64,000 nt of DNA. Origin: Deltaproteobacteria bacterium (GTDB taxonomy: Bacteria > Myxococcota > Kuafuiibacteriia > Kuafuiibacteriales > Kuafuiibacteriaceae). This document shows positions 17,865 to 20,909 of the stretch, piece after piece. The notes below the pieces were generated by a model. It did not search any database, had not been told where the DNA came from, and saw only the letters and a list, made by a program, of their open reading frames with translations. The number at the start of each line of letters is the position of its first letter. Within the stretch, counting starts at the first letter, position 1. The position numbers and the translations under genes were made by a program. The DNA lies in NCBI GenBank assembly GCA_016713425.1, contig JADJPE010000005.1, positions 3,086,143 through 3,150,142 of the forward strand, in the 5' to 3' direction.

Positions 17865-18010
17865 GACCCAGATTCCCCCGAGTCCGGGTTGCCGACATTT
17901 GTCCGCAAAGAGTTTGAACGATTCCTCGACTGCGGGATCTTGGAACGCGGGTTCGTCCTTCTTTTCTGCGACCGATGCCAGCGTGAGCATGCTGTGGCCT
18001 TTTCGTGCAA

Positions 18011-19503
18011 GTTCGCCATGTCCGGACGGACACCCCGTGGCATGAAACTGGTAGGATGCGCCGCGTTGGTGGTGGCACAGAGATCGGCGTTTCCTTGGTG
18101 CTTCAGCCCGTGTGCAAGTTGGATCCGGAGCTCTACGAGCACCCCGTACTGCGCCATGGAGTCCGCCTATGCGGCTTCGGGAGCGCGCGTTCTAGATTTC
18201 GATCACGAGAGCTCCACGCCATCACCGACAGGAGTGTGTGGTGGAAGTTCTTCATGCCCGTTGCGCGGGGCTCGACGTTCACAAGGACACGGTCGTGGCC
18301 TGCATTCGAATCGCATCCAAAGGAACAGCGACGCAAGATGTGCGAACTTTCCAGACGACGACTTCGCAGTTGTTGGCGTTGTCTGACTGGCTGAGCGAAC
18401 AAGAGGTGACACATGTCGCGATGGAGGCGACGGGCGTCTACTGGAAGCCGGTTTGGCACATCCTCGAGGAGTCGTTCGAGCTCGTCCTCGCGAACGCCGC
18501 CCATATCAAGAACGTTCCCGGGCGCAAGACCGACGTGAACGACGCGATGTGGATCTCGGATTTGCTCGCACATGGTCTGATCCGAGGCAGCTTCGTTCCG
18601 GAGGCATCCATCCATGAGCTACGCGCGCTCACGCGAACGCGCAAGCAGCTCGTCCGTGAGAAAGCCCAGCACATGCAGCGGATTCAGAAGACGCTCGAGG
18701 ATGCGAACATCAAGCTCGCATCGGTGATCACGGACATTCTCGGAATGACGGGACGCGGGATCCTCGAAGCTCTCATCCGCGGCGAGACCGATCCTGAGAA
18801 GCTGGTCGACCGCAGGCGTGGTCGTCTCAAGGCCACGCGAGCTGAGCTCGTCGAAGCCCTGCGCGGTCGCGTCACTCGGAATCATCGCTTTCTTCTCGAG
18901 CTTCACTTGAACCAGATCGACGCCCTCGACAAGTCGATCGAGAGCGTGGAGAAGGAGGTCGGCGAGCTGCTGGAGCCCTTTCGAGCTGCCGCCGAGCTCC
19001 TGAAGACGATCCCAGGCGTCAGCGATACCGTCGCCGATGTGATCATCGCGGAGATCGGGGTCGACATGTTGCGCTTTCCAACTGCAGGGCATCTCGTTTC
19101 CTGGGCAGGTCTCTGCCCTGGCAATGATGAGAGCGCCGGCAAACGTCGCTCCACTCGCGTTCGAAAAGGATCTCCGTGGCTCAAGACAACGTTGGTCCAA
19201 GCGGCATGGGCGGGATCCCGTACGCGCGGAACGTACCTGCGTACACAGTTCCTGCGCCTCAAGACTCGCCGCGGTCCTAAGAAGGCCATCATGGCGGTCG
19301 CCGCATCGATGCTGACCGCCATCTATTACATGCTCCGAGACTCCGTCCCCTACCGCGATCTTGGCCCCGACTACTTCGACCGCATGGACACGACCAAGGT
19401 GACCACCCGCCTGGTTCGCAGGCTCGAGAGCCTCGGGTTCCATGTCGAGCTCAAGGAGGCATCCTAAGCGAAAACGATCGTCATCAGCCGTGGTTTCGTT
19501 CTA
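18011..19503 (+). mobile_element. IS110-family insertion sequence, copy 1 (1493 bp), nested in IS91-like tnpA
   Basis: Junctions ...ttttcgtgcaa|gttcgcc... and ...cgttcta|ggggcggg... against the uninterrupted ...gtgcaaggggcggg...; no obvious terminal inverted repeats; 227-bp non-coding 5' end. Confidence 0.8.
18238..19467 (+). CDS. IS110-family transposase (DEDD-type)
   Basis: 409-aa ORF with the characteristic N-terminal RuvC-like region (LDVHKDTVVACI...AMEATGVYW) and C-terminal domain (GLCPGNDESAGKRRSTR...). Confidence 0.9.
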   Translation: MVEVLHARCAGLDVHKDTVVACIRIASKGTATQDVRTFQTTTSQLLALSDWLSEQEVTHVAMEATGVYWKPVWHILEESFELVLANAAHIKNVPGRKTDVNDAMWISDLLAHGLIRGSFVPEASIHELRALTRTRKQLVREKAQHMQRIQKTLEDANIKLASVITDILGMTGRGILEALIRGETDPEKLVDRRRGRLKATRAELVEALRGRVTRNHRFLLELHLNQIDALDKSIESVEKEVGELLEPFRAAAELLKTIPGVSDTVADVIIAEIGVDMLRFPTAGHLVSWAGLCPGNDESAGKRRSTRVRKGSPWLKTTLVQAAWAGSRTRGTYLRTQFLRLKTRRGPKKAIMAVAASMLTAIYYMLRDSVPYRDLGPDYFDRMDTTKVTTRLVRRLESLGFHVELKEAS

Positions 19504-19504
19504 G

Positions 19505-20800
19505 GGGCGGGCGATTTGTCCGAGCTGCGGTGCACGACGGATGCAGGAGACGGCGGCCCATCTCGTCGATGACGTGCTGCCCGATGTCGCGCTGCGGCAA
19601 TACGTGCTGAGCCCGCCGTTCGAACTGCGCGGTCTTCTCGCGTGCAAACGAGAAGTCTTGGCGAAGATGGTGAACTTTTTCGTTCGGGCGATCTTTGAGC
19701 AACTGACCGACTGGGCTCGATGTCAGGGTCTCACAGGACCGAAATGCGGCGCAGTCACCTTCATTCAGCGATTCACGAAGACCCTGAACATCTCACCCCA
19801 TCTTCATGTGCTCGTTCTCGACGGAGTCTTTGCGAACGAAGAAGAGGGTCCCCGTTTCGTCGAATGCCCAGCCCCAACGAATCGAGACCTTCTTTCGTTG
19901 GCCCAAAGGGTCTTCAAGAAGATGGAGAAATTTCTCGCGAAGAGCGGATATCTCCGAAGCGAGTCGGACGCTCTTGAGGAAGCATCGCTGACACCCGTGG
20001 AGCGCTGGTATGTGCGGGGCCTCGCGGAGCCATCGATGCTGTCGCCAAGTCGCATCGTGGACGTCAAGTCCACGGCGATCGAGTGTGGTGGATTCAGTGT
20101 TCATGCTCAGGTTCGTGTTGCCCAAGGCGATCGACGAGGACGAGAAAGGCTCTGCCTATATGCGGCCCGTCCGCCTTTCGCCGAAGGTCAACTTCGCATG
20201 ACCGATGATGGCCGAGTTCGGCTGACGCTTCGTCGTCCAGCGAAGAACGGCCAGGGTGCGATCGTTCTATCACCGGTTCAGTTTCTGAGGCGCCTCGCGT
20301 GGCTCGTTCCTCCCCGGCGCAGCATCAGGTTCGCTATGCGGGAGTTCTGGCCTCGGCCTCGAAAGTGCGGCGCGCGATTGTCCCAAGGCCCGCACCGGTT
20401 CTTCAGCTCGCCTTCCCGATCGAGAACATGAGGCCTCGGGTTCAGAAACATCGCATGTCGTGGGCCAAACTGTTGGCCCGCGTCTATTCGATTGATGGAG
20501 AGCGCTGCTTGAGCTGTGGCGGCCCACTTAGGCCGATCGGTGCGGTGACTGAATCGAGTCACGTCGCGCAGACTCTCGGTCGGATGCGACGGCAGCGATG
20601 CGCTCGAGATCCCCTCAGCTCGCCCTCGATCTCTGATCGACTCTACAAACCAACCCAAGGTCCCACGCTCCGGGCCTCGGCGCTTCTTGTCCGCGCGGTC
20701 GCACTGCTCGTCCGCTGGGGGGAGAGGTACGTCTGAACGCTGCGCGCAGGCTACGGAACTCAACGGCAGTCCCGTCTTGTGGCGTTCCAAACCGGCCAGA
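19505..20800 (+). pseudogene. IS91-family tnpA distal portion (copy C), separated from its 5' part by IS110
   Basis: ORF 19541..20431 and following frames match the consensus TnpA distal region. Confidence 0.55.
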
Positions 20801-20909
20801 CTGCGCGCAACATGTGACTCGTCGCACACCTGCGTCGGTTCTCCGACTGCTCCGGGCATGGTATCGACGACGCATAGTGAGTCGAAGCCGATTGATTGCC
20901 CTATCGGCC

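What the first reader, a model, noticed from the sequence alone, without database searches (positions are those of the whole stretch)
17865..20909. IS110 inserted at the identical nucleotide position inside two IS91-like copies that differ in 5' extent
IS110 copies 1 (18011..19503) and 2 (45352..46844) are the same 1493 bp and interrupt IS91-like tnpA at exactly the same place (between gtgcaa and ggggcggg, splitting the Zn-binding motif AFSCK|GRAICPSC). The two host copies begin at different 5' points (17865 vs 44802). A third IS110 copy (24956..25684) is 5'-truncated but has the same right junction. Either the IS110 targets this IS91-like sequence site-specifically, or one IS91::IS110 composite was later copied in trans with variable 5' termination.
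Basis: partly seen in the sequence, partly recalled or inferred. Interest (0 to 1): 0.6.

Follow-up and report, generated by a model that had tools for sequence, protein, structure and literature searches.

The report
IS110 nested inside ISCR-like transposon copies
A small RNA-guided jumping gene (IS110 family) sits at exactly the same base inside several copies of a rolling-circle jumping gene (IS91/ISCR family), because its guide RNA matches that spot and because the host element then copied itself, passenger included, with ragged 5' ends; this is a neat natural example built from two known mechanisms, not a new kind of system.

Summary
A 1493-bp IS110-family element is present twice with 0 mismatches, and a 730-bp 3' fragment is present once. 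All three have the same right junction inside an IS91/ISCR-like transposase gene, between the K and G codons of AFSCK|GRAICPSC. The boundary is ambiguous by a shared AG.

The IS110 carries a conserved bridge-RNA-like non-coding RNA in its 226-nt left end. One variable block (GUGCA+AG) equals the host sequence left of the insertion. Another (CGUUCU+AG) equals the element's own right end. The same rule holds in about 20 relatives that have other targets, so the exact position is RNA-programmed.

The window also holds 10 host-element copies. All end at the same right (oriIS-like) end, and they have at least 7 different 5' starts. Copy D starts inside the IS110, so a host::IS110 composite was itself copied with 5' truncation, as in IS91-family one-ended transposition. 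Its transposase must have been supplied in trans.

Whether copies C and H are independent insertions or copies of one composite is not resolved. The source is a 7.3-Mb 'Deltaproteobacteria' MAG with at least 5 full IS110 copies and at least 10 empty host sites, and its DNA could not be reached. Verdict: new members of known kinds, moderate interest.

The parts
17865..18009 (+). Host (IS91/ISCR-like) copy C, 5'-truncated left fragment of tnpA, ending ...AFSC(K)
   Evidence: BLAST self-comparison and junction print-outs; translation
18010..18011 (+). Core dinucleotide AG at the left junction. It is repeated at 19503-19504, 25684-25685, 45351-45352 and 46844-46845.
   Evidence: AG is present at both junctions and once in the empty sites. 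AG is the invariant core in 20 of 21 related elements.
18012..19504 (+). IS110-family element, copy 1 (1493 bp counting one core). Left end 226 nt non-coding, right end 36 nt.
   Evidence: Identical to 45353-46845. Pfam PF01548+PF02371. NCBIfam NF033542 'IS110 family RNA-guided transposase', 289 bits against a cut-off of 140.
18080..18215 (+). Bridge-RNA-like non-coding RNA scaffold. Helix 1 pairs 18082-18085 with 18122-18125. The long-range helix pairs 18127-18133 with 18209-18215.
   Evidence: Conserved in 34 of 80 related loci. The helices are supported by compensatory changes: 5 of 7 pairs in the long-range helix, and 0 of 500 shuffles reach the observed covariation. G-U pairs fix the + strand as the RNA.
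18111..18118 (+). Left target guide (LTG) UGUGCAAG. Its last 7 nt equal the host sequence GTGCA+AG left of the insertion.
   Evidence: The guide equals the element's own left flank in 21 of 21 elements, including 20 of 21 at a position not used to find the junctions.
18188..18195 (+). Left donor guide (LDG) CGUUCUAG, which equals the element's own right end CGTTCT+AG
   Evidence: 18 of 21 at the position not used for junction finding
18086..18095 (+). Candidate right target guide GGCGUUUCCU. It can pair with AGGGG of the target (3 Watson-Crick + 2 G-U pairs).
   Evidence: Own-versus-other permutation tests give p about 0.01-0.02. An unbiased column scan gave no clean diagonal, so this part is tentative.
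18241..19467 (+). IS110 transposase/recombinase gene (408 aa, identical to NCBI MBK8012039.1 and at least 3 other accessions)
19505..20909 (+). Host copy C, right part of tnpA through the shared oriIS-like right end ...GCCGATTGATTGCCCTATCGGCC
   Evidence: hairpin GCCGA...TCGGC
24955..25685 (+). Copy D: the 3' 730 bp of the IS110 (plus core). Its 5' end lies inside the IS110 and abuts unrelated DNA.
   Evidence: The protein is the 243-aa MBK8012045.1.
25686..27088 (+). Copy D: host right part, with 0 substitutions against copy C
44802..45350 (+). Host copy H, full-length left part. Its left end CATGCACACGC is shared with copy J and carries the subterminal hairpin GCCGA-TGATG-TCGGC.
45353..46845 (+). 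IS110 copy 2, identical to copy 1
46846..48250 (+). Host copy H right part. It has 3 private substitutions and an intact C-run frame.
7119..8990 (+). Host copy A with an empty IS110 site at 7579-7588
28578..30064 (+). Host copy E (5'-truncated) with an empty site at 28654-28663
54384..56255 (+). Host copy J (96-97% subfamily, full-length left end) with an empty site at 54928-54937
14425..15117 (-). Host copy B: inverted, 5'-truncated, lacks the site
34082..34891 (+). Host copy F: 810-bp right-end fragment
40157..40326 (+). Host copy G: 170-bp right-end fragment
50386..51443 (+). Host copy I: internally deleted, lacks the site

Best explanation
Two known mechanisms act in sequence.

Step 1 (the anatomy is shown; the activity is inferred). 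The 1493-bp insert is an IS110-group element. Its DEDD recombinase is guided by a bridge-type RNA encoded in the 226-nt left end. One loop of that RNA carries GUGCA+AG, which equals the host sequence immediately left of the insertion. Another carries CGUUCU+AG, which equals the element's own right end. Recombination at the shared AG core therefore places the element at one exact nucleotide: inside the codons for C-K-G-R of the zinc-binding motif of an IS91/ISCR-like transposase gene.

Step 2 (shown for copy D; inferred for the others). The host is a rolling-circle (HUH) element. Its copies all keep the right, oriIS-like end and stop at variable points on the 5' side. This is the signature of IS91-family one-ended transposition with internal or premature termination. 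Because the IS110 insertion destroys the host tnpA, composites must be mobilised by transposase from intact copies elsewhere in the genome. Copy D is such a product, since its 5' end falls inside the IS110. Copy C, which starts 146 bp upstream of the IS110, is either another such product or a truncated copy that the IS110 hit later. H is a full-length composite.

The identical position in several copies thus reflects one RNA-specified site plus hitch-hiking of the passenger.
For: Families: Pfam and NCBIfam.

The left-end RNA is conserved in 34 of 80 related loci. Its variable blocks each end in an invariant AG. In 21 elements with recoverable junctions, the first block equals the element's own left flank and the second equals its own right end. 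This includes positions not used to locate the junctions (20/21 and 18/21). Element lengths come out at 1396-1717 bp, 17 of 21 within 1476-1526. The helices are supported by compensatory changes. The guide logic matches that described for IS621 bridge RNA (PMC11208160).

Host element: 10 copies share the right end, at least 7 have distinct 5' ends, the flanks are unique and there is no target duplication. Copy D starts inside the IS110 and has 0 substitutions against C over 2136 bp. An IS110 cannot insert as a 3' half, because its donor site is the right-end/left-end junction.

Precedent: IS801 right-end fragments of 229, 360 and 679 nt arise by one-ended transposition in 26% of events (PMC3189936). 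oriIS lies at the right end, downstream of tnpA (PMC13181058).

Intact-site host genes that could supply transposase exist in the same genome, for example the 488-aa MBK8011977.

The same composite occurs in another sample (L081). It has yet another 5' start, and its IS110 and host parts are equally diverged from the window: 7/1493 against 6/760, p=0.38.
Against: The origin of C versus H is unresolved. H has 3 private substitutions and a different C-run length in the host part while the two IS110s are identical. This is not significant (P=0.13), but it leans towards separate insertions.

Two host ORFs of a diverged subfamily elsewhere in the genome also start exactly at MQETAAH, the signature of the in-frame TAG at the IS110 right end. 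If they are occupied, insertion happened more than once.

The right-half target guide is only weakly supported. The left guide plus core gives just 7 nt of certain specificity. Eight other GTGCAAG sites in the window are empty, as are 3 host sites.

No consensus tetranucleotide marks the truncation points or the oriIS flank, unlike IS801 and IS91. [quoted passage not shown]

The contexts of at least 3 IS110 copies outside the window are unknown.
Confidence: 0.68

Rival explanations
1. All IS110-bearing host copies are independent RNA-guided insertions into a favoured multicopy target. Copy D was later truncated by an unrelated deletion or rearrangement. No composite copying took place.
For: The guide matches the site. 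The three IS110s are identical while the H and C host parts differ at 3 substitutions. There are at least 5 full IS110 copies with identical protein, so the element is recently active. There are possible occupied copies in a diverged host subfamily, MBK8013925 and MBK8015112. All 3 occupied GTGCAAG sites are host sites, against 0 of 8 other sites (Fisher p=0.055).
Against: D's truncation is of the same kind as 6 other 5'-truncated host copies that all keep the exact right end. C and D have 0 substitutions between them. Half of the available host sites in the window are empty. In L081, the IS110 and host parts are equally diverged from the window, as expected for an inherited composite.
Confidence: 0.15
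2. The IS110 spread between host copies by homologous recombination or gene conversion, using the 99.8%-identical flanking host sequence. Neither new RNA-guided insertion nor rolling-circle copying was involved.
For: Host copies are 99.5-99.9% identical over 0.15-1.4 kb on either side of the site. The few informative variants give a mosaic pattern: the C-run state groups C and D with A and E, while column 733 groups C and D with H.
Against: This does not explain D's 5' end inside the IS110, nor the family-wide 5' truncation with a constant right end. C has only 146 bp of homology on the left. Most of the mosaic signal comes from homopolymer indels, which may be long-read errors.
Confidence: 0.1
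3. The host fragments and the duplicated composite are debris from non-transpositional rearrangements (deletions, or recombination between IS copies) in an IS-rich plasticity zone, or they are long-read assembly artefacts.
For: The region also holds IS66-family genes and other repeats. Differences between copies are enriched in homopolymer indels, which are typical of long-read consensus. Most natural IS801 fragments were judged to be rearrangement products.
Against: Ten copies end at the same nucleotide and 7 have different 5' ends, whereas 3'-truncated fragments are nearly absent. The flanks are unique. The same junctions appear in an independent sample and assembly (L081).
Confidence: 0.07

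Closest known systems
IS621 and other IS110-group elements with bridge RNA (Durrant et al. 2024, PMC11208160)
   Same: DEDD recombinase with the Transposase_20 domain. Long non-coding left end and short right end. A 2-nt core is present in target and donor. An RNA block identical to left target + core, and a second identical to left donor + core, lie about 76 nt apart. The guides covary with the flanks across relatives.
   Different: The core is AG rather than CT. The protein is 70% identical at most to anything in the species-representative genome set, 76% in the large protein set (apart from the 99% copy in L081), and 66% in plasmids. In the structure supported here, both left guides lie on the 3' side of their loops. 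The paper describes the bottom-strand-pairing guides on the 5' side. The right-hand guides could not be established. There was no match to any Rfam family.
IS1111-group elements that target other mobile elements: IS4321/IS5075 in Tn21-family inverted repeats, and IS1111-attC elements in integron attC sites (Partridge & Hall 2003 and Post & Hall 2009, cited in PMC11208160)
   Same: An IS110-family element whose preferred site lies inside another mobile element, so that many copies sit at one identical position in a multicopy host.
   Different: Here the element belongs to the IS110 group (RNA in the left end). The site is inside the coding sequence of an HUH transposase (the zinc-finger motif), which inactivates the host, rather than in a terminal repeat or recombination site.
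IS91 / IS801 / IS1294 one-ended transposition; IS801 miniature right-end fragments (PMC3189936; PMC13181058)
   Same: HUH transposase with an N-terminal zinc-binding domain. Distinct ends with subterminal hairpins. No target duplication. A constant right (ori) end with a variable other end. Non-autonomous derivatives are mobilised in trans.
   Different: No conserved tetranucleotide was found next to the ori end or at the truncation points, unless the terminal GGCC is itself the target. The protein scores below the curated IS91 cut-off. Truncation here is inferred from genomic copies, not observed.
ISCR elements (ISCR1, ISCR15b and others)
   Same: The best NCBIfam match is the ISCR clade Ia model. 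The protein is 35-36% identical over about 90% of its length to plasmid ISCR transposases. oriIS-type end downstream of the gene. Clusters of truncated copies.
   Different: Far below the family cut-off (295 against 925 bits). A defined left end is shared by two copies. The setting is the chromosome of an environmental 'Deltaproteobacteria' MAG, with no resistance genes.

Membership tests
IS110 family, IS110 group (bridge-RNA-guided) | DEDD (RuvC-like) N-terminal domain plus C-terminal Transposase_20 domain | tested here: met
   PF01548 (E=3e-28) and PF02371 (E=1.5e-22). NCBIfam NF033542 scores 289 bits against a cut-off of 140.
IS110 family, IS110 group (bridge-RNA-guided) | Long non-coding left end, short right end, RNA encoded in the left end | tested here: met
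   Left end 226 nt (18012-18237), right end 36 nt (19468-19503). A conserved RNA scaffold lies upstream of the ORF in 34 of 80 relatives.
IS110 family, IS110 group (bridge-RNA-guided) | Core dinucleotide shared by target and donor; no longer target duplication | tested here: met
   AG occurs at both junctions and once in the empty sites. The core is AG in 20 of 21 relatives.
IS110 family, IS110 group (bridge-RNA-guided) | Left target guide and left donor guide equal to left target + core and left donor + core, covarying across relatives | tested here: met
   Permutation p<5e-5. Positions not used for junction finding agree in 20/21 and 18/21 elements.
IS110 family, IS110 group (bridge-RNA-guided) | [quoted passage not shown] | tested here: inconclusive
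   A candidate block 5' of UUGGUGC gives p about 0.01-0.02, but the unbiased scan shows no diagonal. The right donor half is nearly invariant (AGTT), so no covariation is available.
IS110 family, IS110 group (bridge-RNA-guided) | [quoted passage not shown] | tested here: not met
   With the helices supported by covariation, both left guides lie on the 3' side of their loops. The source paper does report diverse structures across the family.
IS110 family, IS110 group (bridge-RNA-guided) | Circular right-end/left-end intermediate and RNA-dependent recombination | not testable with these tools
   Needs read-level or experimental data
IS91 / ISCR family (HUH rolling-circle elements) | HUH Y1/Y2 transposase with N-terminal zinc-binding domain | tested here: met
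   PF04986 (E=3.5e-26) and PF14319 (E=1.3e-16). HLHVLV and LYAARPP motifs are visible in the translation.
IS91 / ISCR family (HUH rolling-circle elements) | Score above the curated family cut-off (NCBIfam IS91 equivalog or ISCR clade Ia) | tested here: not met
   IS91 model: 108 bits against a cut-off of 125. ISCR clade Ia model: 295 bits against 925. About 36% identity to plasmid ISCR transposases. It is therefore a distant relative within the superfamily.
IS91 / ISCR family (HUH rolling-circle elements) | Two different ends without inverted repeats, with subterminal hairpins, and no target-site duplication | tested here: met
   Left end CATGCACACGC... with the GCCGA/TCGGC hairpin (z=-2.2). 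Right end with a GCCGA...TCGGC hairpin (z=-1.7, weak). The flanks are unrelated.
IS91 / ISCR family (HUH rolling-circle elements) | Conserved target tetranucleotide abutting oriIS | tested here: inconclusive
   The flanks after ...GGCC are not conserved. The terminal GGCC could itself be the target tetranucleotide.
IS91 / ISCR family (HUH rolling-circle elements) | One-ended transposition: fixed ori end, variable other end | tested here: met
   All 10 copies keep the right end (J's carries a ~20-nt internal deletion and ends at GGC), with at least 7 different 5' ends. This is a pattern only; the process was not observed.

The most novel reading that the evidence does not exclude
This IS110 lineage may have become a specialised hyperparasite of an ISCR-like rolling-circle element. 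Its bridge RNA is tuned to the conserved zinc-finger-coding motif of the host transposase gene. It inactivates each copy it enters, yet it is spread as a passenger when intact host copies mobilise the dead composites in trans. On this reading, the nested IS110 acts as a natural barcode documenting in-trans, 5'-truncating rolling-circle transposition of an ISCR-type element. The bridge-RNA scaffold of this clade would also be a structural variant, with both left guides on the 3' side of their loops and recognition dominated by the left half-site.
Probability: 0.3. Interest if true: 0.55.

Novelty: new member of a known kind. Interest (0 to 1): 0.38.

Why it matters
This is a clean natural case in which the exact insertion point of an IS110 element can be read from its own RNA. 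The same locus also records ISCR/IS91-type one-ended transposition: many right-end fragments, one of which starts inside a passenger element. ISCR mobility has mostly been inferred, so a genome with dozens of near-identical copies and a built-in marker is a useful test bed. It also warns annotators that identical nested insertions need not be independent events. The guide/flank table for about 20 relatives could help in programming or predicting targets for this IS110 clade.

Tried and rejected
- Rfam scan of 17500-21500 at E<=1: only a chance snoRNA hit, and no bridge-RNA family.
- Single-sequence folding of the left end: not better than shuffles, z=-0.04.
- Promoter/terminator scan: nothing.
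- Exact-protein look-ups of the IS110 ORF failed in all start variants. The MAG's DNA is not in the gene-position index.
- Genome contigs does not hold the source genome (best relative 70%), and none of the 80 relatives lies in an IS91-like gene.
- Metagenome scan with the 40-nt left-end start: 0 hits.
- Closer relatives at 74-76% identity have other guides and other targets.
- The phylogeny of host copies is uninformative. There are 13 variable columns, and 5 are homopolymer indels.
- Substitution-distribution tests for C versus H and for L081 versus the window are not significant.
- A search for a common motif at the truncation points and oriIS flanks was negative.
- An unbiased scan for a right-target guide gave no diagonal. 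One block-extraction script was faulty and its result was discarded.
- The accession-adjacency trick confirmed the window's gene order. It could not show what follows the IS110 copies MBK8010149, MBK8010894 and MBK8011695, because only 4 accessions and 15 cluster members are listed.
- Two 2026 preprints on IS110 half-match recombination and large IS110 elements could not be opened.
- Segmental duplication was rejected because the flanks differ.
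Full report
**Observation.**
Window 18011..19503 and 45352..46844 are the same 1493 bp with no mismatch. Both are flanked by GTGCAA|...|GGGGCGGG. A third stretch, 24955..25684, equals the last 730 bp of the element and has the same right junction. The identity between the two composites stops 146 bp to the left of the insert in copy C (17865), whereas copy H runs on to 44802. On the right it stops in both at the same nucleotide (20909 / 48250), and the flanking DNA beyond is unrelated. 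This is not a segmental duplication.

Three uninterrupted host copies give the empty site TTTTCGTGCAAGGGGCGGGCG. Pfam identifies the insert's 408/409-aa ORF as DEDD_Tnp_IS110 + Transposase_20. The reconstructed host ORF is Y2_Tnp + Zn_Tnp_IS91. The insertion lies between the K and G codons of AFSCK|GRAICPSC.

**The wider picture in the window.**
A self-comparison shows ten copies of the host element:
- A, 7119-8990
- B, 14425-15117, inverted
- C, 17865-20909
- D, 24955-27088
- E, 28578-30064
- F, 34082-34891
- G, 40157-40326
- H, 44802-48250
- I, 50386-51443
- J, 54384-56255

All of them end at ...GCCGATTGATTGCCCTATCGGCC, but they start at different points, and each is flanked by unique DNA. 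H and J share the full-length left end CATGCACACGC, which carries a subterminal hairpin. No target duplication is seen.

NCBIfam places the transposase nearer the ISCR clade Ia model (295 bits) than the IS91 equivalog (108 bits), and below both curated cut-offs. The nearest annotated plasmid relatives are ISCR transposases at about 36% identity.

A constant right end (oriIS, downstream of tnpA) with a variable other end is the hallmark of IS91-family one-ended transposition (PMC13181058). For IS801, right-end fragments of 229, 360 and 679 nt were captured as 26% of transposition events (PMC3189936).

**Why the IS110 is at that exact base.**
The 226-nt left end upstream of the IS110 ORF aligns with the same region of relatives from many phyla. 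It forms a conserved scaffold in which short variable blocks are each followed by an invariant AG.

In the window element, the first block is UGUGCA-AG (18111-18118). Its last 7 nt equal the host sequence left of the insertion plus the core. The second block is CGUUCU-AG (18188-18195), which equals the element's own right end plus the core.

In 21 elements whose junctions could be located, the first block equals that element's own left flank and the second equals its own right end. Predicted element lengths are 1396-1717 bp, 17 of 21 within 1476-1526. The agreement extends to positions not used to find the junctions, 20/21 and 18/21.

Two helices of the scaffold are supported by compensatory changes. 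In the long-range helix, 5 of 7 pairs show them. None of 500 shuffles reached the observed covariation, and the slid controls score far lower. G-U pairs show that the strand of the ORF is the RNA strand.

This is the logic of the IS621 bridge RNA, in which left target and left donor guides pair with the bottom strand and include the core (PMC11208160). NCBI's own model name for the protein is 'IS110 family RNA-guided transposase'.

Two points differ from IS621 or remain open:
- Both left guides lie on the 3' side of their loops rather than the 5' side.
- A right-target guide is only tentatively located at 18086-18095. It could pair with AGGGG using two G-U pairs. Permutation tests give p about 0.01-0.02, but an unbiased scan gave no diagonal.

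Relatives at 48-76% identity carry other guides, and none lies in an IS91-like gene. Targeting of this host site is therefore specific to this element and to its 99% relative in L081.

**Why several host copies carry it.**
Copy D starts inside the IS110 at a point with no special sequence, is flanked on the left by unrelated DNA, and from there to the right end shows 0 substitutions against copy C. An IS110 integrates through its right-end/left-end junction, so it cannot arrive as a 3' half. D is therefore best read as a 5'-truncated copy of a host::IS110 composite, made by the same process that produced the other truncated host copies. The insertion puts an in-frame TAG into tnpA, so the transposase must have come from other copies. 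The genome encodes host proteins with the site intact, up to 488 aa.

An independent assembly from another sample (L081, 99.4% identical) contains the same junctions and yet another 5' start, directly after a first IS110. Its IS110 and host parts are equally diverged from the window (7/1493 against 6/760, p=0.38), as expected if the composite is inherited as a unit.

**What remains open.**
C and H could be two products of one composite or two separate insertions. H has three private substitutions and a different C-run length in the host part while the IS110s are identical. This is not significant (P=0.13). Five of the 13 variable columns are homopolymer indels, which may be long-read consensus errors.

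Exact-sequence look-ups identify the source as an NCBI MAG, 'Deltaproteobacteria bacterium', a single 7,301,376-bp contig. The facts recovered from those look-ups are:
- The IS110 protein has at least four listed accessions: MBK8010149, MBK8010894, MBK8011695 and MBK8012039 (copy C). H must be a fifth, because its downstream host ORF is MBK8012070.
- The truncated D copy is MBK8012045.
- The host protein cluster has 26 distinct members, all from this genome.
- At least 10 of them have the CKGR site intact.
- Two ORFs of a diverged host subfamily (MBK8013925 and MBK8015112) begin exactly at MQETAAH. That start is the signature of occupied copies in the window. If they are occupied, insertion into this site has happened more than once.

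**Verdict.**
The feature is real and is explained by two established mechanisms acting in sequence. The first is RNA-guided, site-specific insertion of an IS110-group element into a conserved motif of an ISCR/IS91-like transposase gene. The second is rolling-circle, one-ended copying of the disabled composite in trans, with variable 5' ends.

Both elements are new members of known families. Known precedents include IS110-family elements that target other mobile elements (IS4321/IS5075 and the attC-targeting IS1111 group, cited in PMC11208160) and right-end fragments of IS801.

The interest is moderate. The locus is a tidy natural record of both mechanisms, and the bridge-RNA scaffold of this clade shows an arrangement of the guides that differs from the IS621 description.

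Noticed in passing
window 7119-56255 (copies A-J): The window is a hot-spot of one ISCR/IS91-like element. There are ten copies with the same right end and at least seven different 5' ends, with 3'-truncated fragments almost absent. Protein accessions point to similar clusters elsewhere in the genome (around MBK80117xx, 80139xx and 80150xx-151xx).
   Followed up: partly
window 48251-48258 and 51444-51451: The last 8 nt of the host element (TATCGGCC) are repeated immediately after the right end in copies H and I. This may be a slip at initiation or termination, or it may mean that the true end is ...CCCTATC and that GGCC is a target tetranucleotide.
   Followed up: no
window 7119 and 50386: Copies A and I belong to different subfamilies (99.6% and 97%). 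They share an alternative left end, TCACCGGTGCC, 84-86 bp inside the full-length left end of H and J. This suggests a second recurrent termination point.
   Followed up: no
L081 1-3779 (ENA ERZ25039603 contig_58872): The structure is a tandem: host...GTGCAAG - IS110 - AG|GATCCCGACTGCGGG (about 90 bp of host sequence) - IS110 - host right part. The two IS110s differ by 2 SNPs from each other and share 6 differences from the window element.
   Followed up: partly
L043 3790/5405 and L044 3790/5294 (Longimicrobiales MAG): Distant relatives of the IS110 also occur as two copies about 1.5 kb apart (two hits of the left-end RNA profile per locus). Tandem arrays may be recurrent in this clade.
   Followed up: no
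L085 and L086 (JGI metagenomes): The same 75%-identical IS110 relative sits at two loci that share 14 nt of left flank (GGCGTTTGGTGCTAG) but have unrelated right flanks. This hints that target choice in this clade is dominated by the left half-site.
   Followed up: no
window 18052-18057: A -10-like box TAGGAT (TAnGAT in relatives) is conserved about 25 nt upstream of the conserved RNA scaffold. It may be the RNA's promoter. The generic promoter scan found nothing.
   Followed up: no
window 17741-17785 and 22907-23025: There is a 15-bp tandem repeat, GCTAACCTTGTGGAT x3, just upstream of copy C. There are also tandem repeats of about 57 bp inside the PD40-repeat ORF (20615-23152, minus strand), whose 3' end runs into the right end of copy C.
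   Followed up: no
window 32553-34010, 38644-39966, 30062-30849 / 39280-40056: Two IS66-family transposase ORFs, and a 94%-identical 0.8-kb repeat that abuts the right end of copy E and lies about 100 bp upstream of copy G. Further mobile DNA is interleaved with the host copies.
   Followed up: no
alignment of host copies (e.g. window 20320 C-run, 20720 G-run): Five of the 13 variable columns between copies are 1-nt indels in homopolymer runs, probably long-read consensus errors. The apparent frameshift status of each tnpA copy is therefore unreliable.
   Followed up: partly
window 9673-14438 (minus strand): An SbcC/SMC-like ATPase (1145 aa) and a calcineurin-like phosphoesterase (443 aa) form an SbcCD-like pair. 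Its upstream end abuts the inverted host copy B.
   Followed up: no
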